NCBI GenBank assembly: GCA_012295275.1
Contig: CM022678.1
Location: 7,130,001 to 7,194,000 of the forward strand
Direction of reading: 5' to 3'
Source: Chrysomallon squamiferum
Taxonomy: Eukaryota; Animalia; Mollusca
DNA: 64,000 nucleotides
Below the pieces are notes generated by a model, which had not been told where the DNA came from, did not search any database, and saw only the letters and a program-made list of their open reading frames with translations. Of the stretch, positions 7,435-43,152 are shown in pieces. A program made the translations under genes and the position numbers. The stretch's first letter is position 1. Every line of letters starts with the position of its first letter.

Positions 7435-7489
<55 letters not shown>

Positions 7490-7516
7490 AGACACACACA
7501 CACACTCACACACACA

Positions 7517-7565
<49 letters not shown>

Positions 7566-7672
7566 CTCAAGTGCTTACATGAGATCCTGGGCTGCAGCAA
7601 ACTGTCTGGAAGGACCTGCACTGAGACTGCTAGATATGGGTGACAAGACACACACACACACACACACACACA

Positions 7673-7711
<39 letters not shown>

Positions 7712-7741
7712 AGACACACACATACACACACACACTCAACA

Positions 7742-7806
<65 letters not shown>

Positions 7807-7887
7807 CTCAAGTGCTTACATGAGATCCTGGGCTGCAGCAAACTGTCTGGAAGGACCTGCACTGAGACTGCTAGATATGGGTGACAA

Positions 7888-7952
<65 letters not shown>

Positions 7953-8408
7953 AGACACACACACACACACACACACAACAGACACACACACACACACACA
8001 CTCACACACACAGACACACACTCACACACACACAACTCAAGTGCTTACATGAGATCCTGGGCTGCAGCAAACTGTCTGGAAGGACCTGCACTGAGACTGC
8101 TAGATATGGGTGACAAGACACACACTCACACACACACACAGACACACACAGACACACACACACACACACACACAGACACAGACACACACATACACACACA
8201 CACTCAACACACAGACACACACACACACACTCACACACACAGACACACACTCACACACACACACAACTCAAGTGCTTACATGAGATCCTGGGCTGCAGCA
8301 AACTGTCTGGAAGGACCTGCACTGAGACTGCTAGATATGGGCGACAAGACACACACACACACACACACACAGACACAGACACACACACACACACACACAC
8401 ACTCAACA

Positions 8409-8465
<57 letters not shown>

Positions 8466-11400: not shown

Positions 11401-11993
11401 TTTTGTGGTTTATTGTCTGTTATGTGATTTTGTCTGTCTATGTGTATGTGTGTGTGTTTGTGTATGTAGGGAGGCAAGGTGGCAGTTGGAAATAGCAAAA
11501 CTGAAGGTGGAGAGACAAACAGACAAATGGACATACAGAAGAAACAGACATGGTGATTGAATTTTTATTTTTTTTTAATTTATATTATTTAACTTTAGTT
11601 GCTCTTGTTTTTAAAGTTTTGTTTTATTTAGGTTTTTTTTAAATAAAATTAATAACACATCATCCATTATAAACAATTTCTTGACCTTTTTGCACGGGTT
11701 ATCATTAACCAGTCAGTAAATTCAAGGACACCAACCTTTCATAGACATAAAAGTTTTTTTCAGACAGCCGCTCACCTCTACAAGGGTACCGTCATAGATT
11801 TTTCCAGCTTTCACAGATCGCACTCTTTCATTCGACCGTTTTATTGCCTGAAGGATCTTCTCATAGCCAGCTTTTGAATGTACATCAATAACTTGGGTGT
11901 CCAGTGATTCTGACTGCAAATCACATTACAGTAGTTTATATTTATTTATTTATTTATATATATATAAGATATATATGTATATATATACATATA

Positions 11994-12080
<87 letters not shown>

Positions 12081-12438
12081 TGTGTATATGGGCATGTAGA
12101 AAGGCAGTGAAACAGAGAAAAATAACCAGAATAAAATAAATGATAGATGGAGACAGGTAGGTAGTCAGATAAACTGAATTACAGACAAGTAAACATTTAT
12201 ATATATAGAGAGAGATAGATTGATAGAGAGATAGATAGATATTGATATAGTCTATGTACAGAATCTAATCAAATATATATGACAACAGAATATTCATTCT
12301 TAAAAACACACACACATATATATACACACACTTACTTACAATTATATATATATATATATAAATAAATATATATATATATAGTCTATATGCAGAATCTAAT
12401 CAAATATATATAAGACAAAAGAATATTCATTCTTAAGA

Positions 12439-12473
<35 letters not shown>

Positions 12474-14507
12474 AACACTTACAAACAGACACACTAAAAA
12501 CCTAATTTCTACATAGTTTTATAACACTCAGAAACACACTTAACCTGTGAGTTTTTTTCTACTGACTCAAATGATAAAATAACCAAATACATTAAACAGC
12601 TGGCACTTATATAAATAAATATAACAACTAAATACATACCAGATGCGACGTATCTTCTACTGGAGGCATCACGTCTTGCTCTTTCTCAATTATGTACGAA
12701 TGCATCTGAAATTTCTGAAAATGAATGTACAGATGAATGGATAAATGCATGGAGACTTTGCATGGATGGATACATTGACAGATGAATGAGAGAAGAATGG
12801 ATAAAGAGAATAATGGATGCATGGATGGGAGAATAGATATATGGACAAATGAAAGGAAGATTGAAAGAGCAAACAAAGTGAATGTGTTAATATCTGTACA
12901 TATTTTAGTACTGAGTTACTTTTCTTTTATGGTTAATTTAATAGCTATCATTTAAAAAACAGTCTTGAAAAATTATAATTTGAGTATAATTAACAAATTA
13001 ACCTTTAATGACCCAACATACTTAATAATAATTATTATTATTATTATCATTTCTATTATTAGGTGTCATTTATTATAAATTTCTTGTAAAATTATGGAGA
13101 AAAAAAAAGAAACACAGAAGAATTAACAATAATAATTATTATTATTACTACTATTTGGTGTCAGTTATTTTATATTTCTAATAACATTATGAAGGAAAAA
13201 AAACAAAAAAACATAGCATAATTGTAATCATTACTTGTGCCAATTGCATATTTTACAGAACATCAAAATTAAAAAGATTTAAAAAAATTTATATAAAAAT
13301 TAAAAAAAGAAAAAAGAAAAACATAAAATAATCATAACCATTACTTGTTGCATATTTTTCAGATAAAAAAAAAATCATAATAATTATATAAAAATTAAAA
13401 AAAGAAAAAAGAAAAACATAGCATAATCATAACCATTACTTTCAGAAAATCAAAAAAAAAAAAAAAAAATTATTTAAAAATTAAAAAAGTGAAAAAAAGA
13501 AAAACATAAAATATTTGTAATTATTACTTGTGCCAGTTGCATATTTTTCAGAATATCAAAATTAAAACAAAATTAAACAAAATTATATAAAAATCAAAAA
13601 TAAGAAAAACAGAACATAATCATAACCATTACTTATGCCAGTTGCATATTTTTCAGAACATCAAAAAAAATCAAAAATTAAATTATATAAAAAAAATCAA
13701 AAACAGAAAAAAAGAAAAACATAATATAATCATCACCATTAATTATGCCACTTACATATTCTAAAAAACATCACAAAAAAAAAAAAAAAAATTAAAAAAA
13801 ATTATACAAAATTCAAAATTGATACCTTTGTTGCTAAGGGGTTTTCCAGTGTATGCATAATAAGGTCTCTGGTATCGAGAATAATTTCTCCCGTGGGTCT
13901 GTAGGTGACACCAAACGGGGAGAAGAAGCCAGTGGACAGATTGTTCTCTCTTCTGTTGAATGTGTCCTTCCACAGATCTTCAGATCTCCACTCCTCAACG
14001 CGACTGCCATCTTCTCTCCAAACCTTCTTACAGATATAGATCGGTTTGTCTGAAATAATTTTTTTTTTATTTTTTCAAATAATGATGTGAAATAAATAGT
14101 AAGAATTTAAACAAAGACAGACACACACACACACAAATGTTTGTAAAACTTTTATATATGTATATGTGTGTGTATATATGTGTGTATATGTATATATATA
14201 TAGATATGTGTGTGTGGATGTGTTTGTGTATATATATTTTAAATGTCATGATATATATATATATATATCATGACATTTAAATTTTTACAAAAATATTTGA
14301 TTTTATGTAGCAGCTGAAATTGAAAATATTATTGAACAGTTTAAAACGTTATTTAGGAAATGGCTCTAACATCTCTGTTCAGTATGCTTTATATATTGTG
14401 TAATAAAATTATTGAATATAAAGTTTCATCTTACTCTCTGGTGCATAGTATTTGCGTTTCATGAACTTTCCAGCCAAACATTTGTGTATTGGGGGCCGAT
14501 ACTCCAT
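1..14507 (-). CDS. Uncharacterised protein, at least 16 coding exons, at least 614 aa, 3' end runs off the window start
   Basis: Minus-strand exons in order: 14435-14507 (ATG), 13826-14049, 12640-12714, 11776-11913, 10442-10645, 8607-8734, 5683-5791, 5031-5095, 4407-4535, 3526-3630, 3136-3237, 2393-2506, 1638-1784, 1111-1234, 483-557, <1-32. All are flanked by AG/GT and the phases chain into one stop-free frame: [55 protein letters not shown]...[84 protein letters not shown]. The exon 5 donor is weak (GAG|gtgtcc) and has in-frame alternatives. I recognise no family. Confidence 0.85.
2675..2748. repeat. (GA)n microsatellite
   Basis: Pure GA run. Similar runs occur near 3054-3116, 3337-3385, 16135-16198, 20345-20424, 20512-20585, 24607-24672, 42602-42665 and 45846-45928. 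Confidence 0.95.
3685..4340. repeat. About 28-29 bp minisatellite (CATCAAAATAACATAATCACTACTTTTA-like), about 20 copies diverging to the right
   Basis: Directly visible tandem units in the intron between exons 4407-4535 and 3526-3630. Confidence 0.9.
6243..8676 (-). repeat. Compound tandem array: 86-bp unit (exon 3' end plus GTAAGC donor) x12 plus one partial copy, separated by variable (CA)n tracts
   Basis: The unit AACTCAAGTGCTTACATGAGATCCTGGGCTGCAGCAAACTGTCTGGAAGGACCTGCACTGAGACTGCTAGATATGGGTGACAAGAC starts near 6500, 6612, 6724, 6989, 7099, 7344, 7564, 7805, 8034, 8265, 8464 and 8592, with a partial copy at 6243-6296. The last copy is part of real exon 8607-8734. Confidence 0.95.
8750..9500. 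repeat. Degenerate pentamer satellite (AAATG/AAGTG/AAATA)
   Basis: Visible periodic low-complexity purine-rich tract; it explains ORF 9142-9570. Confidence 0.85.
9500..10438. repeat. About 44-47 bp minisatellite (ATCAGGA...TGTAAGGATATATTCCAATGTAAATAA)
   Basis: About 20 degenerate tandem units, best conserved at 10180-10430 and abutting the donor of exon 10442-10645. Confidence 0.85.
11996..12076. repeat. (TA)n microsatellite, about 40 units
   Basis: Pure TA run. Confidence 0.95.
13190..13820. repeat. About 85-100 bp A-rich tandem repeat (AAAACATAGCATAATCATAACCATTACTTGTGCCAGTTGCATATTTTTCAGAA core), about 6 copies
   Basis: The core recurs near 13207, 13317, 13413, 13500, 13612 and 13715. Confidence 0.8.
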
Positions 14508-14963
14508 GTCTTAAAGATAAAACAAATCATTTGATCTTCAGGGTATATAATGTGAGAAATAGCTGTAATCATAAAAACACGCGCGCGCGCGCACGCACGC
14601 ATACATACAGTCGATTTGATAATGTTATTGTAGTTACTAAAATGATGATGATGGTGACGATAAAAATGATGGTGATAATAATTAAAATTAAAATTAAAAT
14701 TAATAACCGAGAATTGTAATAATCATCGATGGCGATGAACTAACGACATAAAATGTTTCTGCAAAAAATAAACCAAGTATGAAATATAACTTTTAGGTCC
14801 TTTGTTCAGATAGCTAGAGATGATTTCACAAATTCCGAAATTTTTTATATTTAAATATAACAATTATAATGACAAAAAATAAAATTAAAGAACAAAACAA
14901 ACCCGAATTACCCACCTACGAAACTATGGTTTAATTTGCTGCGCGTAACTACGCAGTTTTCTC

Positions 14964-15617: not shown

Positions 15618-16098
15618 TGCATACATATATATATACACACACACAGGCATACATACATACATACATACATACATTTTATAATTATTATAATTTTAAAAAC
15701 AGATTGGCTCTATCACGCGACTGGAAAAATAACAAATAAATAATAATAAAAGAAAAGAAGAAATAATAGTGATTATAAAATAAAACATGAAAAGTAATTA
15801 TAAAACAAACAAAAAAAAGTAATTATAAAATAAAATAAAACAAAACAAAATAAACAGTTTTCTGTATAACACTAGTCAACAAATTTTGAAATTTAATAAA
15901 TTACTGGCCAGTTTATTATATAATATTACTACGAAGCGCGTGATATTTTGAATATGTAAATTTCATAGAGAAATTTTTTATTTTTTTTTTTTTTTTTTTT
16001 TTATATAAAATTGACCAATAAGAGATCAGTACAATTTTAGAATTTTTAATCCGACACGTATTCCGTATTTTATCGAAACGATTTCTTTAGGAGACAAC

Positions 16099-16132
16099 AT
16101 GTTAGGTACGTTTTCAACTGAGAACAAAATAT

Positions 16133-16200
<68 letters not shown>

Positions 16201-16392
16201 ATCTCTCTGTCTGTCTGTCTGTGTCTGTCTGTGTGTCTGATTCGCTGTCTTTCTATCAGTACATCTGCATGTATGTCCATTTTTTTAGTTTTTAAAAACA
16301 ATGTTTTATACATTCATTCATTCATTCATTCATTATTTATATATTTATTTATTTATTTATTTATAGTGTAAATACGTCCTTGTGTCCATACG

Positions 16393-16428
<36 letters not shown>

Positions 16429-16607
16429 TAGCTGCTGTTGTATTCTTTGTTTGTCTAACCACGGGTGTGGTTGTGTCTGAAGAGGACCAGTTTGATAAGC
16501 ATGACAACATTGTCAAGCTAACTGACAAAACTTTCAATGAAACCGTTTTTGAAGATTACCAAGTCTTATGGTTTATTCTGTTTTATGACCATTCTAAGTA
16601 AGTAGTT

Positions 16608-16640
<33 letters not shown>

Positions 16641-16770
16641 GAAGTAGTAGCAGTAGCAGTAGCAGTAACAGTAGTAGTAGTAGAAGTAGTAGCAGTAGCA
16701 GTAGTAGTATCGTTATTATTATTATTATTATTTCTAGTGCTACTGTTACTACTACTACTATTACTATTGC

Positions 16771-16801
<31 letters not shown>

Positions 16802-19800
16802 TGTTGTTGTTAATGTTATTGTTATTATTATTATTATTATTGTTAATATTATTATTATTTTATTAACTAACGGATTAAGACAAATTTGTTCTGAATATAA
16901 TCGTATTCATATTTGGGAAGTGTAAAACATATTGTATGGGAAACATTGTATGGAAAATATTGTATGGAAAATATTGCATGTGAAACTATGGACGGGAAAT
17001 GTTGCATGGGTAACATTTGTAATTATTATTGTAATCAATACATATTTGTAAATTTATTCTAATTAATATAATCATATATATATATAAAATAATGATTATA
17101 AATAAATATTGATTATTATAACTATAAATATAATTATATTTATTAGAATAAATATTACAAATATATATATATATATATATATATAATTTTTATTTTTTAT
17201 TGCATATATATATATATATATATATGTAATCTTTATTCTGCTTCAAAACATCGGTAAGGTACCAATACATGCAACATAAATTCAACACCCGCATTCCAAC
17301 TGAAACATTTACGATCACGCGATACATTCTACGTTACGAAACTTAAATTCAGCATCTAAATTCCATTTCAAGGGTTTTTGCAAGAACACTGTGTTGGTCC
17401 TGAAACATATTTACAAGTACATGTGCGGTGTGTGCGGCATACATGTAACTTTGCAGTCACGAGATGAAATTCCATATTCAGTATTCTAAATGAACATATG
17501 TTTTTGATCGACTCGTGTCATATGTTATCATAAATTCATAATCTACATTCCTAGTTTGATATGTTTATGGCATATGACAGTGAAAGAAAGACATTGATAA
17601 TATATACATACATAGATACACACATACATACATACATACATAAATACAGACATTCAGACAGACATACAAACATACATACATACATACATATATATATATA
17701 GATAGATAGATAGATAGATATGTAATTCTAATTAATACATTTATATATATATATATATAAGGATAAATTCTTTTCAAACTTGATGAACTAAGATTCTAAT
17801 TAAATACATTTACACGACATAGTCATATTCGGACAAAAATGCTTAAATTGAACATGTTTGAACAGAATGCAAGTTCTAACTTAACACTTTATCTTCATAA
17901 CGTAAATAAAGCATATTTGTAAATGCTCAGTATTATAAATAAATCCATAATCTATAATCAAACCATTGACTAAGAGTGGACGTATAAATTCTAAATATAG
18001 CAACAGAAATTCGTAATTCCTTATCTTAGTTCATCAAGTTTGAACAAAATTTAAATAAAAAATAGATTACTATTAGTATATATGCAAATTACTCATACCA
18101 CCAATGAATATTTTCAAAAAAGTTTTAAAAACCATTGATGCGATAACTAAAGAGCGTGTCTAATGAGAATAAAAAACGAAACCATATCAATGCTTAGTTT
18201 TTTAATTGAATGCACAGAAGATAAATGTCATTTACCTCAGACACTTTCACTTAAGGGGCACAGAAAAAATAGAAGATGAAACGTACTTTTTAAAATTGTA
18301 GTTTTTTTTACCCCAAAATGACGTGTTTCTTAGACTTTGGGCCGGTTTTGATGAAATACGTCTCATTTGAAAGTTAATTTTTAACTCTTTCCTTGATAAG
18401 TGCAAACTAAATTGATGTCAGCTTTTGACCTTTTGTTTGACTTTGAATTCGATCTTGTAATTCAACTGACCTTGAAATGACGTCAAGTCAGAATTAAACT
18501 CCAAGATTTTACCAACAACATACATAAAAAAATTCCCAGGCGTAAAATGTTTTTTTTTTAGTTGTAAACTACACTTAAAGTGGACACACCTGACTATAAA
18601 ATGTCCATTTTGGCATTTCTAAGGCAGAATCGAAGATGGTAGTGTGGACATTTTCCTTTTTGGGACTACCCTAAAGTCTTTTTATAATTATACACAGAAA
18701 ATAGCATTCGGCCATTAATAAAACATTTTCAGGGCAATGTTTGGAATAGGAAATACACAGGCATACAGAATGGAACAGAACATTCAGAAACTAACTGTCG
18801 TAATAACTCATATTTGATTTAGTTAAAAATATCAACCACAATTGTGACTGAATTTGTTAAGATAATGTTAATTAGGATATGTTAAGTTAAAAGAGAGCAA
18901 AAACTCAGGAAAAGACAAGCAGATGTTCACATGTACACACTACCAGACCCCATCTCTGTCTTCTCTCTGACCCTTAATTCCTGAGCATTATCACATCTCT
19001 CTATCTCTCTGTGTATTTTAAAATGATCAATAACAGCTGTCATAAAACTATTAAATTCCGCCCTGAAAGGCTTTATCAACCTAAGTACCAATTTATTATT
19101 ATTATTATTATTATTATAACTAAAGGTAATGATATTATGTGTCAAAGTAACGATATTCATAATGCTAGACTGTTTTGTTTCACTGGAGTGACTGATAAAT
19201 ACACATATCAAAAACAAAATAAAATAAATGCTATAAAATAGGATATACCACAAACGAAATACTTATATGTACAAAAAATATTTTTAAAAAATACAAAATT
19301 TGGGTAAGTTGAATCAGTAAGTTAATATGAGCAAAATACAACGAATTAACATATTTTTCTAACTTTTTATCTCTTTTTTTTTTTAAAGCATGCTAACGAA
19401 AGTAATCGATGAGTGGACAAAACTGTCGCTATACGTGAAAGTTTGTATTTGATTTTGAATAATGAAACACAAACACACACACAACCATATACACAAGCAA
19501 ACACTCACAACCATATACACAAGCAAACACTCATAACCATATAACAAAGCAAACATAGAACCATATAATATAAATACATCACCATATTTAACCATATACA
19601 CAAGCAAACACACACAACCATATACAGAAGCACACACACAACCATATACACAAGCAAACACACACAACCATATACAGAAGCTAACACACACAACCATATA
19701 CACAAGCAAACACACACAACCATATACGCAAGCAAACACACACACAACCATACACGCAAGCAAACACACACAACCATATACACACGCAAACACACGTAAA

Positions 19801-20042
19801 CATACGCATAAACTGAAGCATACAAAAATACATACATCAATATTTAACTACAAACATACACACACACACACACACACACACATATTTACAAACATGCATA
19901 AACATGCATACAAACATACATACATACATACATACAGGCATATCTACCTACATACCAACCAACCAACATACATAATATATACATATGCAAACACCTACGT
20001 ACGGACATATTTATATTGATATATATACACATACACATACAT

Positions 20043-20087
<45 letters not shown>

Positions 20088-20341
20088 CACTCTTTAAGGG
20101 ATTTATGAAAATTGGTGTTGTAAGTAACGAAGACAGCGTCCTGATTCGCAGATACCACGTCCACACGTTTCCAACGGTTATGATATTTTCAAAAACGTTC
20201 AGAGAAAAACCCAAAACTTACAAAAGTTGGTATTATTATAAGTATCCCTTATTATCATCGTCGTCATCACTTTCGTCATTGTCATAGTTACCATCATCAT
20301 TAGCGTCATAATCATTATCATATTATCATAGGTCATTCAAC

Positions 20342-20426
<85 letters not shown>

Positions 20427-20508
20427 ATATATTTTTCTCTGTGTGCTAGTATGACTATATATTATTCAGTATTGTTTATGTTAATGTATGCAGCTGTACA
20501 TGTACTTT

Positions 20509-20589
<81 letters not shown>

Positions 20590-21228
20590 CCTACGCCCAA
20601 CAAATTAAACTTTAAGTTTCGGAGGTGTGCATGTAAAATTTGTTTTGAATATTAAATGTTTTTTATTTTTTTTATTTCTAGGTTATTTACTGGCTAGCTA
20701 TCTACTGCAAGGTGTAACTGGTGAAGCTAAATCTATCGGGTTACTTAGACTGAATGCGAATGAAGGAAGATCAAATAAGGTTAGTGGGTAATATAGCAGC
20801 AACAGTAACAGCAACAACAACAACAACAATGATGATGATGATGATGATGATAATAATAATAATAATAGCAACAACAAAAATAATAAAAATAACAAAAATA
20901 TTGATGATGATGATGATGTTGATGATGATGATAATGAATTTTGATGCACAGTGAATGTATTCGTAGTATATATGATATTCAGTAATACGTGTTTGAATTT
21001 ATTGCAGCTTTCAGCACATAATGTAAAAATAGCTGTTTTATTTCCTTTTTTTTCTTTCCTTATTTATTTATGTTTCTCTTTATCTAGTTTATTAACTTTT
21101 CATTTAATTAATTTTTAAACCTACTCTATTATTTATTTATTTACTTATTTATTTATTTACTTATTTATTTATTTATTTATTAATATATTTTATTTATTCT
21201 ATTTCAGTATCTTCGTGAAGGTTTATGA
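16099..21228 (+). CDS. PDIA6-derived single thioredoxin-like domain protein lacking CXXC, 156 aa, putative signal peptide
   Basis: Exons 16099-16105 (ATG TTA G|gt), 16432-16597, 19389-19440, 20099-20225, 20682-20779, 21208-21228 give MLAAVVFFVCLTTGVVVSEEDQFDKHDNIVKLTDKTFNETVFEDYQVLWFILFYDHSNMLTKVIDEWTKLSLYVKGFMKIGVVSNEDSVLIRRYHVHTFPTVMIFSKTFREKPKTYKSYLLASYLLQGVTGEAKSIGLLRLNANEGRSNKYLREGL*. It aligns by eye to the first domain of the neighbouring PDIA6, with intron phases 1,2,0,1,0 identical. The last exon is the least certain. Confidence 0.8.
17765..18052. mobile_element. MITE with about 30-bp terminal inverted repeats
   Basis: TTCAAACTTGATGAACTAAGAT (17773-17794) is the exact reverse complement of 18023-18044 and extends imperfectly outward. 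There is no internal ORF. Confidence 0.7.
18250..18675. mobile_element. Possible non-autonomous DNA-transposon fragment
   Basis: Higher-complexity, CpG-containing island with repeated TTGACCTT-like motifs and loosely inverted ends (TAAGGGGCACAGAAAAA ... TTTTTGGGACTACCCTA). Family not assigned. Confidence 0.3.
19017..19345 (+). repeat. Dispersed repeat copy A (about 330 bp), homologous to 45952-46305
   Basis: Shared blocks in the same order and orientation: AAAATGATxAATAACAGCTGTCATAAAACTATTAAATTCC, CAACCTAAG, (ATT)n, AAGGTAATGAT, GACTGATAAATACACAT, TTTGGGTAA, TATGAGCAAA. Confidence 0.85.
19470..19795. repeat. About 24-28 bp minisatellite (CACACAACCATATACACAAGCAAA), about 12 copies
   Basis: Directly visible tandem units; they explain ORFs 19383-19793 and 19505-19840. 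Confidence 0.9.
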
Positions 21229-21902
21229 TGAAGACATTCATCTCCTTTCACTAACAACATTTTAGTCTACAGGATTGGAATAACATATATACATAGCTTT
21301 AATATTTTGATATATATACAATTTATTCGTTCTTTCTTCATCTTTCCTTTCTTTATTCTTCCCTTTTCTTTCATTCTTCTTTTCCCTTTTCCTTTATTTT
21401 TCTTTTTCTTTCTTCTATTTTTTTTTTTTTTTTCTATCCAGGTTTCGCCTGTTCCAGACTTCAAGAACCTATACTCTTCTTTCTCTCTCTCTCTCTTTTT
21501 TTTTTTTTTGAGATAATTTAATATTTTATGTATCGCGATTTTGGGTATCGCGTATTGCTTGCCCTTTTCATTCGTTTATGGTAACCCTTATTGTTGTTTA
21601 ATGCATATATATATATATATTTGTTTGTTTGTTTGTTTGTTGTTGTTTTTATTACAAAACTTGAAAAGCCAGTGTATTCAAAATACGTAAGTATAACAAT
21701 GTCCATTTATATTATTTGATTTCCAGTAAAAAGTACTGATCGTTATCGTTCACTTTGATTCCTCGAACTTTTTTTATTTAAAATTATATATCATGGCTGT
21801 GACCCCGTTCAAAAGTTCGGGGAAACGAGAACATTAAGCAAATAATAAGTAAATAAATAAATAAAAGATTATATATTATATATCCATTATTATTATTATT
21901 AA

Positions 21903-24135: not shown

Positions 24136-24603
24136 ATGGCTGCGAATGAAACGCAAATAAATGCAGACGATGTTACAAAGAAAACACCATCTGAAAATGA
24201 GATTAATGAAGATAAAACTTCTCAGGTGTCGGACAGTCATTCAAATACAAACTCTGAAAACAGAGATGTTGAAGAGAGCACAATTCCGAATGTAACAAAT
24301 GAATCCAGTTCTAAACAAGACAACATGTTCGGAAATCAAGCTGTTTTAAGATCGCGGTATCGAAACGCTAGAGAATACGCTCAAGTTTTGCAACCTTGGT
24401 TGTGGCAATATTATAACTACAACATGATGAATGCTTTTTTCTCAACAATGCCTCTTTATGCCATGAGTTGTAATCCTCAAATGAGTATGCCATGGACTCA
24501 GGCGCCAGGGTTGCCCCCTGCGGATGGGCGTGGCAATTCACTAATACGAACAGAAGGAACGGTACAGAGCAGCGATTTTAATGCTCGTGGACAAACAGGT
24601 ACA

Positions 24604-24675
<72 letters not shown>

Positions 24676-25294
24676 AGTACATATAAAGCTGCATACATTA
24701 ATGATTAACATAAACAATACTGAATAGTATATTATATACTATATAATATAGTCATACTTGCACACAGAGAAAAACATATACTCTCTCTCTCTCTACATAC
24801 ACACATATAATGATATATGACACACAATTATATGTTTAATTATCTCTCACTTTATCTTTCTCTCTATATGTATAAATGTACACACACACACACACACACA
24901 CACATACATAAATACACATACAACACATAAACATACAATTTTGTTTCATAACATTATACTTTCATTTTCAGGGAGAGAGTACAGATTGCCATCGTTTTGG
25001 AAGAGAGTTGCAGCAGAGTTGATTGATTTCACCCTCTTGTTCTATGTCAAGCTGATTGTCACTATTGTGGTCATGAGAGAAATGGGATACTTGTGAGTCT
25101 TATTATACACACATACATACAGTATGATACACACAAGCCTATCTATCTATCTAGCTATATATATATATATATATTCTTAAGAAACAGAACAAGCAAACTG
25201 CATTCTACATATACATATTTACAAGGTTTTTTTTTCCCACAAAGTAATTAAATGTCCAGTGGCAAAATTCTTTTCTGTTTTATGTATGTGTATA

Positions 25295-25327
<33 letters not shown>

Positions 25328-25418
25328 ATGTATGTATGTATGTATGTATGTATGTATGTATGTATGTATGTATGGATGGATGGATGGATGGATGGATATA
25401 TATAGGCAGATAGAAATA

Positions 25419-25482
<64 letters not shown>

Positions 25483-28016
25483 CACATACATACATAAACT
25501 TAATTTCAAAAATGAATGATTATTCCTTAATTGTTTATCTATTTATTTATCTGTTTATATATTTTGAAGGGTAATTATTTACGGTCTTAATCTTATAGAT
25601 GTAAAACTAATTTGATAATTTATTTAAAAAAAAAAAAAAAAAAATGTTTTTTTTTTGTTTCAGCAATGGCACGCAGGTGACTGAACTCTTCACTGACTTA
25701 AATGAGATTGACTATGACAAAGCTTTTGCCATTTCATCAGAGGTTATTGCTATGGAGATTGTAAACAGGTTGCTAATCACGATTTTTGAGGTATGCAGAT
25801 TTTCTTATTTATTTTAATGTTGTTTGCTGATCTTACTGCAGACATCATACTTATACGTTTTTTGGCAGTAACAGAAGAAAAAAAAAATGCTGTGCTTTTT
25901 TGTTGCTTTAGTTTCAGTATTTCTTATCTTTTTTCATGCTGTCAAAATTACTTTGACTGACGCATGAAAAGCATCTTACCAATCATTATTGCCGTTGAGA
26001 GATTTTTTAAATTGTGGATTTGGTTCTTAAGATTTCTTAAAAAGTCATTAAAATTCTAATGAGAAACTTGTAGATTTATTTTGATCTAGAAAATGGAATA
26101 AGAGATAAATCCTTTTATTTTCCTTTGTTTGTTTAAAATATAGTTATATCAGGTGTCAGCAAACCATAGATCTTGTCACTGTATCCTTTGGTCTCTTGTC
26201 AACACCCAAGCACGTAATTAAAATAAATAAATAAATAAATGTTATCAGTAATAAATTTCTCTATGTAAAGGTGAATAAACACTGAATATTTCAAAGCATA
26301 TTTAAAGAAACAAAAGATTATATTAATCACAAGTTTCTTATACTGATACAACCACTACTGTAACTGACCTCTTTTTGATCTCTAGACATTTGTCCATCTT
26401 CTGGATATACCCACTGACCACATGGTTCAGTATCATCTACTTTGCTGAAACCCTGGTGTAGACTATTGTTTTGAGACAGTGAATAAAAGAGTTGCATTGT
26501 GATAATAATTAATTCAGTCTTTTGTTTAAAATATGACTAGTGGTATAAAACAAATAAGTAATGCAAATCTGAAATTCATTTAAAATATGATTGTTTGAGA
26601 AGAGATTTTAGGTTAGCTAGTTATAAAATAATAATAATTATTATTATTATTATTTATTTTCCTTTAAAATTAGAGCTAATTCTTTGAGGACACTATTAAT
26701 ATTACTGATAATAGTGATAAACATTTCTGACTTTCATGCTGCATAATTATTATTATGATTACTTTTTATGTAAGTATTCATTTGTTTGTTTACAGACACT
26801 GTGTTTGAGAAAAGGGATAGGAACAGTAGGTGGCGCTACACCTGGCAAGAGACTTCTGGGATTGAAAGTTGTATCGTGTTATGAAATTTTTGAAGTTGCT
26901 GGTGGAAAAGTGTTTGTTGTCCCTGCTCAGAATATAGGATGGATGAAGTAAATAAATTTATTTATTTATCTGTATATCTGTATATCTGTGTATCTATATA
27001 TCTATCTATCTATCATTTTCTTTGAGTACTAAGTATTTCATCATTCTGTTTAAATATTTTCAGAAGAAAAAAAAATGCAACTTTTAATTGATTCCTTACA
27101 AATGCTAAACACATTCAAGAGACAGTTGCTATATGATGATGGCTTCAGTTAAAAAATGTTTATTAATACTTATTAAGTTTTCAGCTTTGTAATAAAAATA
27201 ATTAAAAATAATAACAATAGTTCTGTGATTTCTAATCTCTATGGTAGTGTTCGCTTGTGACACTTTGAGAACTCATAGCTGTAGTAAAAGCTATATATTT
27301 TTTAATACATTAGTGTTTATAATTATACTGCATAATTCATCATACTTTTATCGTGGTATAATATTTCACTTAGGGTCTCAAACATAAAAATTAACAACTA
27401 CTGCAGTGTATATTTATCATGAATTATGTATAAGCAGACAGTGTTGACATTTTTAATTTGGTGTTTTTCTATTGCTTTTTTCTCTATTATAGCATTATTT
27501 GATATTTTTTCTTATATCAAGGCTTTTAATTATTCAAAGAAAAACAAAATAATAATAATTTATGTAAATTTTTAAATTCAGATAGTAATTTTTAATGTTT
27601 GTTTATTTAAAAAAATAAATGAATAAAACAATTTAGTGTGTTGTGTTAAATCAGTTAATTGTGAATAATTTTTAATTTTTGTTGTAATATAATTTTATGT
27701 TGTTAAAATTTCTATATCCAGTATTTAATTTTTTGTTGTAATATTAGAATTTTGTTATTATTTAACATAAATATTTTTTGTCTCTGATACTCAAATCTTG
27801 TTTAATTTTGTACAAATATTTAAAATTATTATTATTAGTACAATATATTTTTTTTTTTTTTCTTTCAGTGCTCTTCTGCGATCAGTCATCAAAAACTTCA
27901 CAATTGCGTTTTTCTTTCCTGCCTGCCTGACGATATTTTTCTTCAAACACAACCAGGCTATGTACGATGTGCTCAGTAAAACCATTGTTGTTCAGACTCT
28001 TGAAGGGGAATTGTAA
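24136..28016 (+). CDS. FAM8A1: FAM8A1, RDD-domain membrane protein (HRD1/ERAD cofactor), 336 aa
   Basis: Exons 24136-24598, 24972-25092, 25664-25790, 26796-26947, 27869-28016 splice in frame. Characteristic segments: AREYAQVLQPWLWQYY, GREYRLPSFWKRVAAELIDF, GGATPGKRLLGLKVVSC, ALLRSVIKNFTIAFFFPA, QAMYDVLSKTIVV. Confidence 0.93.
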
Positions 28017-34009: not shown

Positions 34010-34827
34010 TCACAATTCATCTTTGCCTGTATCATCCAAATCAACATCACTAACGTCAATATCTTCTACAACAGGAAGCTGAAAAATATTTTTAAAATAA
34101 CAGTAATAAATGATTTTGGAACCTGGACTTGAGATTAAGAATAAAAGATAAAAGGTGTGTGTGTATAAAACATGTGTCTTTTTCTTTATCAAATTTAGCA
34201 ATTTGTAACTTGAAAATATATCTTGTGTGTGTGTGTGTGTTTGTGTGTGTATAATCATGTCTGAACTTCTGAACTTCAGAACTAAAGTTAATAAGAATTT
34301 TGTTTGTGTGTGTATAATCATGTCTGAACTTCTGAACTTCAGAACTAAAGTTAATAAGAATTTTGTTTGTGTTTGCCACTGTGTTGTGTGTAGAAACTTT
34401 GAAACAAATGACCTGAAAGATGCATGATCAGAAATTAATTCTAAGACAAAATTCCAAAGATCAAGTTTGGATGCTTCAAAAAAAATGGTAAAAAAAAAAA
34501 TCACGAAATGATTGTTACGATTTCAGTTAGTCTTTTCTTGTTGTTGTTGATATTACTATTCTTCTCTTATTATTATTACTGTCTGTTGTTTGTATTTTAT
34601 TTTGTTGCTGAAGGTTTAAAGGAGAATTTCACAGTATAAAACAAATAATGTATTACACATACCTCTCCATCTTTGCCATCCCAAGGCTCAATCTTTTCAA
34701 CTTGAGGTAATTTTCCATCTTTTATTGGTGCTGTGGACCCTCTACCATACTGCAGTTCTCTAAAAGTTGAAGTAATTGATAATGAAAATAAACATGTCGA
34801 TATCCCCAACAATAAATCACCCACAAC

Positions 34828-34892
<65 letters not shown>

Positions 34893-36629
34893 TCGTATTG
34901 TGCAAGACTGATAGTAATAGTTACTGAAAATATTGTAGTAGTAGTAGTAGTAGTAGTAATCATATTGACTGTCTAATGATTACAGTTAATAATTAATCTC
35001 ATGAGAAACCACATAATGTCAAGAAATTTTAATAAAGATTACTGAAAAAAAAAAAGTTAGTAAAGTTTAAATCCATACTTAGATTTATGACAGTTAAATA
35101 AGATAATGACATTTCTTCACAACTATAATAAATTTAAAAGCCAACCATTTTTAAAATTTTGTTTACAATCTGGTCAACACACACCAGAAAAAATAACTAA
35201 ATGAATTTATTGCTACAAAAATAAAAAGTTTCAGAATTAAAAATACACACACACATAAAACTGAAATTTTAATAAAAATTTCAAATCTGTGAATGACTAG
35301 TTACAAAATGTATGAATTTATTTCACAAACCTTAAAAATTCAGTAATTCCCTTCTCATCAAAAGCCTGCTTGAGCCATGAATATTTCATTTTTCTAGCAT
35401 TAAAAGCTGCAAGAGCCTGCAGAGAACAAGACACAGATTAATGGATGATGTAAATGCGAATGTTTTATTTAATGAGACAGAACAATTATTTATAGATAAT
35501 CTGTAGAAATATGATAATTATTATAAGAACATCAATGAATTTAACAGTATAATGTAAAAGGCAGAACTTTCATGAGTGAATATTATAAGATTTATTGAAA
35601 AAAAAAAAAATAATAAAAAAGAAGTGTGCATTGTCTAATGTAGTTATACAAAACTTTAATTATACAAACAAATTAAACACATTTTGAAAAATATATAATA
35701 GCAAATTAACAAAACAATATAACAAAAAATAAAAAAGAAGAAATATCTTCAGAATTTGTACTGTTTAGTTGTGTACTTCCAAATGAAACAGTTTTCCAGG
35801 ATATTTTTCTTTTCAAATTTTGTTTAAACATTGAGTAACTTACTGGATATCCAAATCCACCAATTCCAAAAGCCTCTTCTACTTTTGGTTGTGATGCACC
35901 TTCAGCCCACACCCATCTAAAAGAAAGCAAATAATTTGTGTATATTAACATCCACTCTGTATTTTAACGAGTTTCTACTGAATATTATATTACACAAATA
36001 TTACTAAAACAAAACTTTCTAAAACCATCACTGGTTGAAGTTATCAAGTAAAATTTCACAAAACTTAAAATAATTCTTGATTACAAAATTCATTATTTTC
36101 TTTTTCATTAAAATGGTGATGCAGTAAAGATAAATAAAAAATAATAAAAAAATAAAAAAAAAATAATAAAAAATTAATAATAAAATAAAATAAAAATAAT
36201 AATAGCAAAACCATTTATTTTGAACTTTATTTCAGAATCACTAGGAAACTTACCCCCACATATTTTTCTTAAACTTTTCTCCTAATTTTTTAAGCAAGCT
36301 AATATAATCGTTTCTACATTTTGACTGGCAGTCAAGAATGTGTGGAAGTACAGCCACAATGCATAGTTGATGTCCTTCATGGCACTCAGTCAAAACCTTT
36401 TCTTCCACCAGCTAAAATAAAAACATTTAATTTATCAGTAATTGACCTGAAATCATTGAAAATATTATATTAAGAGAAAAAAAAAAAAGCAATTTAGTTG
36501 TCACCTGAACTCTAAAATTAACTTGATTCATAAAAACAGTGAAGTTGTCATATCAACAGTGTAATTATCAAGATAATTATATTATCAAAATGACAACATC
36601 ATAGTTTTTATTAAAATGTTTATTTTCCA

Positions 36630-36662
<33 letters not shown>

Positions 36663-39600
36663 TAGAAAAAGAAAAATAAATAAATAAACAAATAAAATGT
36701 CAGTTAAAAAAAAAAAAAAAAAAAATAAAAGAAATTAAATAAAAAAATTTTAAAAATTAAATAAAATTTAAAAATAATAATAAAAAAAAATGAAACCAAA
36801 AATAATGATAAAAATTAAAATAATAGTAATAAAAATAATAAAAACAACATAATAAAAATAAACACATACTTGGTACACATCTGGAGGAGGAATGTTTTCT
36901 GCTAATTTATCTTTAGCCCAAGATACAATGTCTGAAGCTGTTCTTCCTCCATCATAGTTTACTGCTTCGTCCTTCTTCCCACTGGGGAACATTTTTATTG
37001 TTGGAAAACCTTGTATCTGTAACAGAAAATAACAATATAAATAAAATTCCATAATACACCTCAACAGTGCAATTTATTGAAATGTTATTTCTAGCTAAAG
37101 ATTTCTACTAATTAAAGCTAATTCTAATTCGTTAACACAATAAAAAGCTGATTTCTCTCTCTGCCAAGCAATATTATTCAAGTCTGTTAGATCTGTAACA
37201 GAAAATCTCTCATTAATTAAAGAAAATGGTATGTGTAGATAAAGTTTTCTACAAGGTAAATGTTAATGAATTAATAATGCAACAATAACTGAAAGCTAAT
37301 TTCTCTGCCCATGTTATTTTAGTCTAATGGACAGATAAATAATAACATAAAATCTTTTAATACACCTCAACAATTTATTTTATGGAAATGATGTGCCTAA
37401 CTGAAGTTTTCTACAAGGTAAATGTTGAACTTAATTAAATTATAATATAACAATAATATGATGCTAATTTCATTTCCTGTCTTATTTTAGCCTATTGGAT
37501 CTGTAGTAGATAAAAAATAAGTTAACATATCTCAGTGCAGATCAGCAACATTAATTTATGAAAATGATATGCCTAACTGAAGTTTTTCTAAAAGTTAAAT
37601 GTTAGTGAATTAATAATTTAACATTAACCTGAAATTAATTTCTCTGCCAAGTGATGTTATTTAAGTATTCTAATTAACAGAAATAAATGAATACAAATAA
37701 AAAAATCAAGTTACTGCAAAAGGTGAATTAACAAATATGATTTGTTAATATTATAAACACTACTAAATAAAACTCATTATACAATGTAATCAAATATATT
37801 GCAGAATGAACTTCTATCAACTGTATCTAAAATAACAATTCTGATTTAATTTACTTTTGTATCAAATTTCTATGCTGTAAAATTACATCCAAATTAAACA
37901 TAGCAAATCAGTTTCTATTTAAACACTAAAAAGAATTTAAAAAAATGTATCTTATTTATTTTTGTTATGCAGCAGTAATTGTTATTTTTTAATTATTTAA
38001 GTTACAGCAATGAAAAAAGAAATTCGAAAACAAAAATACTCACTCCATATCTGCTAGCCATAACGGTGTGTACTGTAGCATCCAAGGCACCAAGTTTGAC
38101 CTTGCCCTTCAATTCAGTAGCTGCCTGAGCCCAGTGAGGTGCAAGATTTTTGCAGTGACCGCACCATGGTGCATAGAATTCAACCAACCACATATCATCA
38201 CTCTCCATAACAGTCTTTTCAAAATTACTGTCGGTCAGTTCTACAACATCCTTGGGGTCTCCTGCCTGTAAAATAACAAGGATTTAATAAAAATATAAAT
38301 AAATAAATATGAAGATTTCTATTCACAAAACATACAAGTATAATTTTCTAGAAGAGGCTTATTCTTCCAAAAAAAAAACCCAACTAATTTTAAAGATGAT
38401 GTATTTATGATTCACTACTACAGAAACCGAAAAGTGATGTCATTAGTAAAAATACATATTTATAAAAGATGGATGGATGGAGATCTATACAAAAGAAAGA
38501 AGAAAAGAAGATATAAAATGTAGGTAAAAATGGACAAAATGTTCTACCTTTCTTCAATAATGTAATTAATGGTTATAGATATAGATGAAAAAAGAAAAAA
38601 AGAAAGAAAGAGATAAAGTAAAATGAACATGATATTCTTCCATTCTAGCTATGGATTTACTGGTTAGTAAACAACAGTAATTTGCAAAAGCTGGACAAAT
38701 AAAAAAGATGAAAGAGGATAAAATGGACATAATATTCTACCTTTCTACAAAAATGAGACCAATATTTATTACTGCTACCAATGTATAAGAGATGGGTAGA
38801 TGGAACAATACAGATGAAAGAAACAAAGAAAAAAGATACTAATTTATAAACAATGGATAGATAAAGAAAAAAGAAGAAAGATGGAATAAAAGTAAAATGG
38901 AGTCTACTACTTTTCCCTTGCCATGCGATTCTTTTTGCAATTAATGATAATGTTAATGACATTAATTTTGAAAAGATGGATGGATAGAAAAACAGATGAA
39001 AGACAGAACTTTATAAACAGTGGAAAGATAAAAAGATACAAATAAAACAAAGAAAAATGAAAATGCAAAAAGAAATGAAAGAAACTGGACCAGATCTTCT
39101 ATCTTTCCACTCGTACCTGAATTTTTTTCTGATTAATGATTATGTTATTATGTAATTTAGAAAAGATTGATTAGTATCTTACAGTCGGTCTAAGAAAAAT
39201 GACACTAATTTATAAATAATGGCTAGATTTAGATATAAATGAAACAAAGAAAGAAAAAGACACCAAAATGAATTTTAAAAAAAGGAGAAAAATCTTCTAC
39301 CTTTCCACCACCACCACCTGTCTTCCTTCCACCAGATCTTTCTTGTACAACTGATTTTAACTCATTCATAGCATGGTCCACAATTCCCTGAGATGTTCTA
39401 GGTCCTGAATTTCATTGAAAAAATCATAATAAAATTTTTAAATCATTAGAATATTAAACAAAATAAAGTCATTAACTAACTAATTACTGCATACCAGATA
39501 CATCTGAACAAATAATAAGAATCTACACTTTAATCACATTGTAAAAACAGCAATTTGTAATATCATTATGATAATAGAAAGAATCTGTAGCTTTTTCTCC

Positions 39601-42307
39601 AATCTGGTTTTGATGCCGTGAAATACAAAAATAAAGGAATATGAATACTTTGTAAACTTGTATCTAAAGTAACAGAAATAATACAAGCACAAGTGTACAC
39701 ATAAGCACAGACAAAAAAAAAGAAAATCTTAAAATTTATCAATTAGTTAAGTTCCAGTTATCTCAGGACCGTACAATAACAGACTCCACAAATATTTGTT
39801 TAAACAGAGAGTTTAGCATCAATATAATATTCAAATAATGTTTCATTTAATCAACTTATCTTATATTAATGAAATATACTGGACCATTTGTAATAATGTT
39901 AATTAAAAGGAATTTAAAACTATATGGGATTTAAAATACAACTTCTGTTTATTACAGGTTATAATTACAGAGGTGTATTTTGTAAAAATGACCTTTTTAC
40001 TGCTTAACCCCAAGCTAGTAGAAACAAAATGAGCTTGTATATGTATATGTATATGTATATATATATAATATCATTTATATGTCATTTTCCATATATATGT
40101 ATACATATATACACAGGGTATTATCTTTGATATTTTGTTTCATTTTTAAAGCTTTAGGGGAAAGCAAAATAAATAATACTGAAGGAGAAACAAAAGAAGA
40201 AAAAAAAAACAAAAAAAACTACATTATATATTCAAATCAGATAACAAAATTGCTAATTTTTTATGTTGTCTGTAAAATAATTGTTACAAATTCCACAACC
40301 TAAATAAACCTTAAAATAATAAGAGTTAAAAAAAAAGGAATAATTATAATGAAACATTACTGACCATTATAATCTTTAGGAGTCTTTTTGTTTTGTGAGA
40401 AAATCTTTATAGTTGGAAATCCACGCACTCCATACTGACCACCCAAACTCTTATGTTCATCGGCATTCACAGCAGCAATCCTAACAATACCCTGACAATA
40501 ACAATAAACACAAATATTAGCTTTGAATAAAGTTACCTGATCTTTTTATATCTGTTACAGATATTTGTTATTTTCATCACTATTGTTAAAAAATATAAAA
40601 ATATAAAATTTAAACACTAAAAGTATCTTTAGCGATAAAAAAATCTGAAAATTAACTATTTAAAAAAGTAAACACTACAGAATCTTTAGAGGTAAAAAAT
40701 AAAATAAAAATCTGAATGAAACGATACATGAAATACTAAACAGTACAAAAGGACATCTTTAGAGATATAAAAATGTGAAAATGAACTATTTATAAAATAA
40801 ACACTAGTGAATCTTTAGAGAAAAACATTTGAAAATAAACTATTACAAAAATTGAACAGCTACGATATCTTTAGCAAAACAATTACAATACTGTGTGGAT
40901 AAAACTGCTTTCATTCTTAACTGAAACACAACAGTTAATTTTTACACTTTTTAAAACACAATAAGTAAAGTAAGACTACAACACCGCCATAGAGCAGACA
41001 ACATAATAATAGATTTTTTTAAAAATTTTGTTTTTATTTTCTTTTATTATAAATTGTAATTTTTTTTATTAGTTAACAAAAATCCAGTCACAGATATGAA
41101 CATAGAACTGTGATATTTTGTTTTACATACCTTTAATACAGATGCTGCCTTCTTCCATTCAGGTGCTAATGCCTGACAATGACCACACCTTGTAAAACAA
41201 GTATACAATCATTATAAATTTTAAAGATAATTTAACATCATTTTTAAAATTCTCTGTATCCATCTCAACTGTATCAATTTCTAACTGTTTAACATTACAC
41301 ATATAAAAAGCTACAGAAATTATATTCGATATATATAGATTACACTATTTAGATATTATACTACATACAAATGCATTACATGTTTTTATGTATATTTATT
41401 GTAATCTAGCTTTAAAAACACAGAAAACTATAATATAGATATTTTAATCTGTCTGTCTGTTTTTATCTCTTGCATATATGAATATGTGTGGAATTTACAC
41501 GCCCATATACATACAAACATCAACATATCTCACACTGAACATAAAACAACATCTGTGTAAAATTATTTATCTTAATTTTTATTTCATTCAGAAAAAAAGG
41601 GAAAGCACCATTTTCCATCATCACAAATGTGACAGTTTACTTTTTGAGATAATAGTGGATATTATCTTACTTTATCCTGTAGTTATGTATCCTGTTAGTT
41701 ATATAACACTGTAACATGTATGTAAATATTGCTTATGAGTTAAGAATAAAACTGATGAAACTAAGAAAAAACATAAAACAATAGCTTTACAATATGTATA
41801 TAAACAAGCATATAAAGTGAGCTTAAAATTGATCTATATAAAAACAGTAATGCCAGTCTGTTATTTTAAATGAAATATATTTTGATTCTTTGACCAGCTA
41901 TTTGCTAACAGTGCTGTTTAGAGAGAGAGAGAGAAAAAAAAAAAAAAATGATTTTTTTTCTCAACATGAAAAGAGCTTGAAGTCAAGAACAGAATGCTAA
42001 AGAAAGTTCAACTTACCATGGTGCATAAAATTCCACAAACCAGATGGCATCACTTTCCATAACTTTCTTCTGGAAATTTGCTGAGGTGAGTTCTATGACA
42101 CTGTCAGATGAATCATATAATGCTGAAGTCATACTAAGGCCAATGGCCAGACAGAGGAAAAACACTGAAACAAAAACATTTACAGTAATTAGTGGATTAG
42201 TAAGTGTATCTTGTAAATAATGAAAAAGTGGTGATTAATAAATATTTTAGTCATAAGTAAAAACATTCTTCTTAAACAGTTATACATCAGAATACCACTA
42301 TATCAGT

Positions 42308-42355
<48 letters not shown>

Positions 42356-42597
42356 ATCTGGACCGATGATAAAATGAATGAGAGACTGAAAGAGCAGTGG
42401 TGGAAAATGGAAACCAACTCAACCACCTTGCAAGTTTGCCGTCATTATGTGCCCATGTAAAGCTATTAATTCATTAAAATTATCTTCAGTTTTGGATAAG
42501 ATAATGTATGTTTTGTTTATGTGAACCATCTAAAATATACACTTACAGTTCAGAAACAAGTTAATTCTAAGTGAAAAATATCAAAATAAAACAATTC

Positions 42598-42669
<72 letters not shown>

Positions 42670-43152
42670 AATAAGCATCTTACTCAATACCATCACTAGT
42701 ACTGAAACAGGATACAAGTTGGAAACAAAGAAGTTCATCAATGAGTGAGAAACTTATTTTATAATGACTGTTCAGCACAAAACTGGAACTCTTCAAGACT
42801 TAAACCAAGGACTGATATTTGTGATAAAGAAATGGGATAAAGTAGTAATTGCAAAACAGTAAATGAGAAATATGAATAATAAATAAATAAATAAATAGAC
42901 AGTAACATGAAACGTATGTTAAGTATAAATTATAGTAATCGTATATATTTTTAAACGTCATGATGATTCAGTTTATATCTCCACGTTTAACTGAACCGGC
43001 CAGTGCCATGGGAGGTTTCTCTTTTATCAGTTTTAATCTTATACAAAATTAAATATTTACTGAATACTTAAACACAGTGAGCAGTAATATCTAAACAAAA
43101 AAAAAAAAAAATGCTGTTATGTCATTCTAACATACTAATACATACCAATCAT
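34010..43152 (-). CDS. PDIA6: Protein disulfide-isomerase A6 (P5), 431 aa
   Basis: Minus-strand exons: 43146-43152, 42017-42164, 41131-41188, 40365-40491, 39301-39404, 38044-38265, 36870-37016, 36254-36411, 35844-35916, 35331-35416, 34663-34759, 34010-34078. Signal peptide, two FYAPWCGHC thioredoxin domains, Gly-rich linker, P5-type C-terminal domain ([24 protein letters not shown]), acidic tail and C-terminal KDEL. Confidence 0.97.
34240..34372. repeat. Near-perfect 63-bp tandem duplication in the last PDIA6 intron
   Basis: TTTGTGTGTGTATAATCATGTCTGAACTTCTGAACTTCAGAACTAAAGTTAATAAGAATTTTG occurs twice in a row. Confidence 0.9.

What the first reader, a model, noticed from the sequence alone, without database searches (positions are those of the whole stretch)
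16099..21228. Hidden cysteine-free pseudo-PDI: a truncated, redox-dead local duplicate of PDIA6
Seen in sequence: six small exons splice into an intact 156-aa frame. The first five mirror PDIA6 exons 1-5 (39301-43152) on the opposite strand. Both genes have a 7-nt first coding exon (ATG TTA G versus ATG ATT G), intron phases 1,2,0,1,0, a 127-nt fourth exon and an AAG acceptor before exon 3. Fold residues persist ([70 protein letters not shown]), but APWCGHC is replaced by DHSNML with a 2-codon loss. The only Cys is in the putative signal peptide. Established: CXXC is needed for thiol-disulfide exchange, and redox-inactive PDI-family members such as ERp27 and ERp29 act as chaperones or adaptors. 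Inference: heavy divergence with intact frame and splice sites suggests a maintained gene. It could be a chaperone, a decoy modulator of PDIA6/IRE1 signalling, or a co-opted secreted protein.
Basis: partly seen in the sequence, partly recalled or inferred. Interest (0 to 1): 0.85.

Follow-up and report, generated by a model that had tools for sequence, protein, structure and literature searches.

The report
Cysteine-free PDIA6 offshoot in vent snail
A snail gene copied from the first five exons of the neighbouring protein-folding enzyme PDIA6 has lost both catalytic cysteines but kept its hydrophobic core, and likely encodes a small, probably secreted, non-enzymatic binding protein whose expression is untested.

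Summary
Six GT-AG exons give a 156-codon frame; the first five copy exons 1-5 (signal peptide plus domain a0) of the PDIA6 gene lying 13-27 kb away on the other strand, with all five intron phases shared. That PDIA6 is 84% identical to Gigantopelta aegis PDIA6 (next best 67%), so the host is likely a peltospirid vent snail. The copy is about 30% identical and synonymous sites are saturated, yet 28 of 30 core hydrophobic positions stay hydrophobic (1 of 1000 neutral simulations) and neutral decay never kept frame plus splice sites (0 of 20000): the fold was under selection. Both cysteines and the invariant Glu, Trp and Arg of the active site are gone, the cis-proline stays, no modelled C-terminus has an ER-retention motif, and the promoter lacks PDIA6's ER-stress element. 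Corrections: the net loss at the active site is one residue, and exon 6 is uncertain. Expression is untested and no orthologue was found. Best reading: a maintained, redox-dead, probably secreted thioredoxin-fold binding protein. A PDIA6 decoy acting through the a0 dimer helix is the bolder rival. Redox-dead PDIs are known, so this is a new variant.

The parts
16015..16019 (+). CCAAT box that aligns with the CCAAT half of PDIA6's ER-stress element; the CCACG half is absent
   Evidence: proximal promoter similarity is not significant (186 of 1760 control windows score as well)
16099..16105 (+). Exon 1 coding part, 7 nt, ATG, phase-1 GT donor
   Evidence: same length and phase as PDIA6 exon 1
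16432..16597 (+). Exon 2: predicted signal peptide, short acidic insertion, first strand, helix and second strand of the thioredoxin fold, one N-glycosylation sequon (residue 38), start of the degenerate active site
   Evidence: PDIA6 profile hit E 0.0015 in the six-frame scan
19389..19440 (+). Exon 3, 52 nt, AAG acceptor: cysteine-free replacement of the CGHC motif and helix 2
20099..20225 (+). Exon 4, 127 nt: central strands and the retained cis-proline motif (FPT)
   Evidence: 16 of 41 identical; profile hit E 0.00023; Atlas top hit a PDI fragment, 0.92
20682..20779 (+). Exon 5, 98 nt: equivalent of extended helix 4 (the dimer helix of PDIA6 a0) and start of a short tail; weakest similarity
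   Evidence: (6 of 32 identical)
21208..21228 (+). Proposed exon 6 (6 codons and stop); no KDEL-type motif; uncertain
21442..21516 (+). Alternative terminal exon behind a stronger acceptor; would add 24 residues with a hydrophobic end read from a CT/T run
24136..28016 (+). Intervening RDD-domain gene (FAM8A1-like; name recalled)
   Evidence: Pfam RDD hits on two exons, below the curated cut-off
34010..43152 (-). Parent gene PDIA6: 12 coding exons, 431 aa, two CGHC sites, C-terminal KDEL
   Evidence: 84% identical to Gigantopelta aegis PDIA6, P0040
43253..43271 (-). Perfect ER-stress response element (CCAAT-N9-CCACG) upstream of PDIA6
   Evidence: the only exact match in the window

Best explanation
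This is an inverted duplicate of PDIA6 exons 1-5 that has lost both active-site cysteines, and it likely encodes a maintained, single-domain thioredoxin-fold protein that is predicted to enter the secretory pathway, would leave the ER for lack of a retention motif, and likely works as a non-catalytic binding module. Shown: shared exon and intron plan, intact frame, loss of Cys53 and Cys56 and of Glu47, Trp52 and Arg116 (all five invariant in 70 of 70 PDIA6 relatives), retention of the core and the cis-proline. From established knowledge: without cysteines in the mature chain it cannot exchange disulfides. Inferred: transcription, signal cleavage near residue 18, glycosylation at residue 38, secretion, and that the remodelled, now apolar active-site face (Glu to Leu, Arg to Leu, Cys to Leu) binds a partner or client, possibly as a homodimer through the retained helix 4.
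For: Gene plan identical over five exons and unlike that of the second domain, whose N-terminal part and active site lie in one 222-nt exon. Profile of domain a0 scores it 51.4 bits, profile of domain a 36.1. Hydrophobic core kept at 28 of 30 positions; neutral simulations at matched identity give 20.0-21.2 +/- 2.5, and 1 to 2 of 1000 reach 28. Neutral decay to this divergence kept start, frame and 18 splice bases in 0 of 20000 runs at each of five divergences. Synonymous sites saturated (pS 0.77) against pN 0.46. None of the three C-termini modelled ends in a KDEL-type motif, whereas the parent does. The ER-stress element is present at PDIA6 and absent here. The end branch is 2.6-4.8 changes per column against under 0.1 for the parent's a0, more like a co-opted protein than a partner of conserved ER machinery.
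Against: No transcript or peptide evidence. No orthologue was found: exon 2 gave 2 hits among 1.84 billion representatives, both generic PDI-like multi-domain proteins, and word searches with exons 2 and 4 gave none, although Gigantopelta proteins are in that collection; these short queries are insensitive. Pfam recognises none of 3 exons tested. Surface positions are no more conserved than neutral (17 of 75 polar positions turned hydrophobic, within the simulated range). ER residence through a partner cannot be excluded. The true last exon is unknown, and the 21442 option would add a hydrophobic tail. No partner is identified.
Confidence: 0.45

Rival explanations
1. ER-resident, client-specific chaperone or escort in the manner of ERp29 or ERp27, kept in the ER by binding a partner or cycling with a secreted client.
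For: Signal peptide, fold core and cis-proline are kept. Human PDIA6 has chaperone activity besides isomerase activity, and ERp27 and ERp29 work without CXXC (PMC3500226, passages).
Against: ERp27 and ERp29 carry C-terminal retention motifs; none here. No b-type domain: no remnant of PDIA6 exons 6-12 near the gene. ER-stress element lost.
Confidence: 0.2
2. Natural decoy (microProtein) of PDIA6: the isolated a0 domain would pair with PDIA6 through helix 4 and cap its dimers and calcium-driven condensates.
For: It keeps exactly the module that dimerises and scaffolds condensates in human PDIA6: domain a0, extended helix 4 and a basic tail (PMC12431857 and PMC12611771, passages). The five interface positions named there map, by a two-residue offset, to Val, Phe, Ala, Ile and Gly: four stay apolar, Ala and Ile occur in 22 and 13 of 70 orthologues, and the tail has net charge +2 like the parent's linker.
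Against: The invariant Leu (70 of 70) became Val and one position became Gly (0 of 70). Exon 5 is the most diverged exon (6 of 32 identical) and the mapping assumes no gap. A partner of a conserved protein should not run on a branch 40-50 times longer. No ER retention, no shared stress element. Dimers and condensates are shown for human PDIA6 only.
Confidence: 0.15
3. A gene that was functional for a long time but is now silent or decaying (recent pseudogene).
For: Very long branch, no orthologue found, no family recognises single exons, uncertain last exon.
Against: No stop, frameshift or broken splice site; exon length changes of +18, -6, 0 and -6 nt are all multiples of three. Decay since the duplication is rejected; only very recent loss remains possible.
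Confidence: 0.12
4. An old member of another PDI subfamily, or an ancient PDIA6 paralogue, whose position near PDIA6 says nothing about a lineage-specific origin.
For: AU tests reject none of four placements (p 0.09-0.22). Without the signal region the peltospirid PDIA6 is no longer the best match (167 against a maximum of 179). It has the general molluscan residue at some peltospirid-specific columns. Molluscan PDIA1, PDIA3, PDIA4, TXNDC5 and ERdj5 were not in the trees.
Against: Five shared intron positions and phases, a 7-nt first exon, linkage within 27 kb; best BLASTP hit among 121 proteins is Gigantopelta PDIA6 (73.6 bits, next 61.2); 7 of the 21 columns flagged as peltospirid-specific are shared against 4 flagged ancestral; with the signal region the two peltospirid sequences score 217 and 218 against a maximum of 186 for the other 69.
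Confidence: 0.08

Closest known systems
PDIA6 (P5, ERp5), domain a0
   Same: Exon plan, signal peptide, fold core, cis-proline, extended helix 4; about 30% identity.
   Different: No CGHC, no catalytic Glu or Arg, no a or b domain, no acidic tail, no KDEL, no ER-stress element.
ERp29 (PDIA9)
   Same: Signal peptide plus one a-like thioredoxin domain without CXXC (PMC3500226, passages).
   Different: ERp29 is 261 aa with a retention motif and a helical second domain (recalled); this protein has neither and derives from PDIA6.
ERp27 (PDIA8) and PDILT
   Same: Redox-inactive PDI-family members.
   Different: ERp27 is b-b' with a retention motif; PDILT is 584 aa with non-classical active sites. 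Both are multi-domain.
AGR2 / AGR3
   Same: Small single-domain proteins of similar length (166-175 aa) in the secretory pathway.
   Different: AGR3 keeps one active-site Cys and a retention motif; different subfamily.
Biomphalaria multi-domain PDIA6 derivatives (P0001, P0003)
   Same: Gastropod PDIA6-derived proteins with degenerate active sites and no KDEL; their first domain falls in the a0 clade.
   Different: About 1400 aa with nine thioredoxin domains, several keeping one or two Cys; not joined with this protein in the tree, so likely an independent event.

Membership tests
PDIA6 orthologue | Two CGHC active sites | tested here: not met
   No Cys after residue 10
PDIA6 orthologue | a0-a-b architecture, acidic tail, KDEL | tested here: not met
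   No remnant of exons 6-12 in a six-frame profile scan of the window; no KDEL in three possible ends
PDIA6 orthologue | ER-stress element in the promoter | tested here: not met
   Only exact match is at PDIA6; none within one mismatch near 16099
PDIA6-derived paralogue (a0) | Shared intron positions and phases with exons 1-5 | tested here: met
PDIA6-derived paralogue (a0) | Closer to a0 than to a in sequence | tested here: met
   Scores 163 against 104; 51.4 against 36.1 bits
PDIA6-derived paralogue (a0) | Nested in the a0 clade in a tree | tested here: inconclusive
   Inside the a0 group in both trees, but long branch and AU tests reject nothing; most PDI subfamilies absent
PDIA6-derived paralogue (a0) | Leu-Val dimer motif on helices 2 and 4 | tested here: inconclusive
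   Four of five positions apolar but all five changed
PDI family / thioredoxin fold | Thioredoxin fold | tested here: inconclusive
   Sequence evidence strong (E 1e-17 to the a0 profile in a two-sequence search, 28 of 30 core positions, cis-Pro); no structure model of the spliced protein could be made
PDI family / thioredoxin fold | Cleavable signal peptide | tested here: inconclusive
   Hydrophobic residues 1-17 matching the parent's; no signal-peptide predictor available
Redox-inactive ER PDIs (ERp27, ERp29) | No CXXC | tested here: met
Redox-inactive ER PDIs (ERp27, ERp29) | C-terminal ER-retention motif and second domain | tested here: not met
Redox-inactive ER PDIs (ERp27, ERp29) | Chaperone or adaptor activity | not testable with these tools
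   needs bench assay

The most novel reading that the evidence does not exclude
A naturally evolved microProtein of PDIA6: the bare, redox-dead a0 dimerisation domain that pairs with PDIA6 and caps its dimers and calcium-driven chaperone condensates, tuning ER folding in a vent snail's secretory tissue; a natural counterpart of the engineered dominant-negative PDIA6 mutants.
Probability: 0.15. Interest if true: 0.75.

Novelty: new variant of a known kind. Interest (0 to 1): 0.45.

Why it matters
It is a clean example of a pseudoenzyme born beside its parent: the whole catalytic apparatus (two Cys, Glu, Trp, Arg) was stripped while the fold core stayed under selection, and the parent is there for comparison. 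With the independent Biomphalaria derivatives it suggests that gastropods repeatedly recycle PDIA6 domains as non-redox modules. If it binds PDIA6, it would be a natural regulator of the recently described PDIA6 dimer and condensate system. If it is secreted, it is a lineage-restricted, cysteine-free extracellular protein in an animal living in sulfide-rich water. Until expression is shown it remains a well-supported gene model in one genome.

Tried and rejected
Expression: no RNA holder listed; four coded runs laid on exons 3-6 matched simple repeats, and no listed piece spanned an exon, so they say nothing either way; exons 1-2 were not examined with reads. No whole genome is held, so other copies and synteny could not be searched. 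Orthologue searches with single exons: none; 2 generic hits; one metagenome locus, L001, is a chance match in a bacterial contig and was dropped. PDB by sequence: exon 2 best E 0.12 (ERdj5), exon 4 twelve hits, all PDI family, E 0.15-1.8; not significant. Atlas: exon 2 top hits unnamed at 0.93, one with 10% thioredoxin members. Complex prediction of the exon-5 peptide with Gigantopelta a0: no answer, score 0.00, not evidence either way. No structure model of the spliced protein was made. Careful 60-row tree did not finish; the quick tree was used; 22 named PDIA6, one PDIA5 and two Biomphalaria proteins of the 121 held went into it, and 19 rows into. Promoter similarity is not significant; no convincing intron similarity survives between the paralogues beyond short low-complexity matches. 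dN/dS on the candidate's own branch cannot be estimated: synonymous sites are saturated. Earlier scan findings: none. Literature: eight searches listed no paper on such a gene. Supplement file 3 of PMC11871041 (cut when stored; one further file unreadable) lists only a canonical four-domain PDI and a tryparedoxin-like protein and none of three short peptides; unannotated entries there cannot be assigned. Twelve of 13 supplements of PMC7142155 gave only a TMX3 row. A passage supporting the roles of the catalytic Glu and Arg was not found; those roles are recalled.
Full report
Observation. A complete PDIA6 gene of 12 coding exons (431 aa, two CGHC sites, KDEL) lies at 43152-34010 on the other strand, with an RDD-domain gene between them. 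PDIA6 exons 1-5 measure 7, 148, 58, 127 and 104 nt against 7, 166, 52, 127 and 98; all differences are multiples of three and all phases agree. The spliced product aligns to PDIA6 residues 1-148 with score 163 (42 of 137 identical), to the second domain with 104, and the best of 1000 shuffles scores 48-49. A six-frame scan of the window with a PDIA6 profile finds the PDIA6 exons and candidate exons 2 and 4 and nothing else under E 3, so no remnant of exons 6-12 survives beside the copy. Two details need correcting: the active-site span is one residue shorter, not two, and exon 6 is uncertain, since a stronger acceptor at 21442 or read-through of intron 5 would give other ends. None of the three ends carries a KDEL-type motif.

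Host and origin. The window's PDIA6 is 84% identical to Gigantopelta aegis PDIA6 and at most 67% to the other proteins listed, so the host is likely a peltospirid vent snail; the species was not established. The candidate's best hit among the 121 proteins held is the same Gigantopelta protein (73.6 bits, next 61.2). It shares 7 of 21 columns flagged as peltospirid-specific and has the general state at 4. That preference depends on the signal region: without it the peltospirid sequences are not the best match. Trees put it in the a0 group on a branch of 4.8 (quick tree, 60 rows) or 2.6 (19 rows) changes per column against under 0.1 for the parent, and AU tests reject none of four placements. 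Origin from a0 therefore rests on gene plan, linkage and profile scores (51.4 bits for a0, 36.1 for a). An origin on the peltospirid lineage is likely but its date is open.

Selection. Between the paralogues pS is 0.77 (saturated) and pN 0.46 over 143 codons. Neutral decay of PDIA6 exons 1-5 kept start, open frame and 18 splice bases in 0 of 20000 runs at each of five divergences, before indels are counted. At 30 positions that are hydrophobic in at least 90% of 70 PDIA6 relatives, the candidate keeps 28 hydrophobic, while stop-free neutral copies at matched identity keep about 20-21 and 1 to 2 of 1000 reach 28. Polar positions show no such signal. These simulations use a simple substitution model and one alignment, and cannot exclude very recent silencing.

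What was lost. Glu47, Trp52, Cys53, Cys56 and Arg116 of the parent are invariant in 70 of 70 relatives; in the candidate Glu, the second Cys and Arg became Leu, and Trp and the first Cys have no counterpart. The roles of that Glu and Arg in catalysis are recalled, not sourced. The cis-proline motif remains. The mature chain has no cysteine, so disulfide exchange is excluded. It has one N-glycosylation sequon. PDIA6 has a perfect ER-stress element at 43253-43271; the candidate keeps a CCAAT box without the second half. Human PDIA6 is reported to carry such an element (PMC3500226, passages).

How it most likely works. The signal peptide would take it into the ER; with no retention motif it would be secreted as a glycoprotein of about 16 kDa. 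A fold kept under selection with a rebuilt, apolar active-site face and a fast-changing surface fits a non-catalytic binding module (0.45). An ER chaperone for a special client (0.2) is the conservative rival. The bolder rival (0.15) comes from two papers of which I read passages: human PDIA6 dimerises through helix 4 of a0 and forms calcium-driven condensates that need the a0 dimer and the basic linker, and a linker mutant is dominant negative (PMC12431857; PMC12611771). The candidate is exactly that module. Four of five mapped interface positions stay apolar and the tail is basic, but all five changed, one to Gly, and exon 5 is the least conserved. A recent pseudogene (0.12) or an older paralogue (0.08) remain.

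What was not shown. Expression, localisation, structure and partner are untested. No orthologue was found with single-exon queries, which are insensitive.

Comparison and novelty. It works like the redox-inactive PDIs ERp27 and ERp29 in lacking CXXC, but fails their membership on retention motif and second domain, and it is not a PDIA6 orthologue. Biomphalaria has unrelated nine-domain PDIA6 derivatives with degenerate sites, so the route has precedent in snails. Eight literature searches listed nothing on this gene; of PMC11871041 I saw passages and parts of one supplement, of PMC7142155 a supplement search only, of PMC7736800 and PMC12561257 passages; unread or cut supplements could bear on expression. 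Verdict: real, maintained-looking pseudoenzyme gene; new variant of a known kind; interest 0.45.

Noticed in passing
window 43253-43271 (-): Perfect ER-stress response element about 100 bases upstream of the PDIA6 start, with further CCAAT and ACGT-core sites around 43280-43330.
   Followed up: partly
P0001, P0003: Biomphalaria proteins of about 1400 aa with nine PDIA6-like thioredoxin domains, most with one or no active-site Cys and no KDEL; one search listed no paper on them.
   Followed up: partly
window 10420-14920 (-): Multi-exon gene divergent from the candidate, about 1.2 kb upstream; four exons tested match no Pfam family.
   Followed up: partly
window 6250-8680: Tandem array of an about 75-base unit separated by CA microsatellites of varying length (seen).
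   Followed up: no
window 19020-19340 and 45955-46310: The same dispersed element of about 300 bases lies in intron 2 of the candidate and upstream of PDIA6, in the same orientation (seen).
   Followed up: no
window 52530 onward (+): Multi-exon gene that reads like peroxisomal acyl-CoA oxidase (recalled resemblance); another gene lies on the minus strand at about 48500-51900.
   Followed up: no
window 21442-21516 (+): Strong acceptor whose exon would give a hydrophobic C-terminus, possibly a GPI-type or membrane tail; it is read from a CT/T run and may be untranslated.
   Followed up: partly
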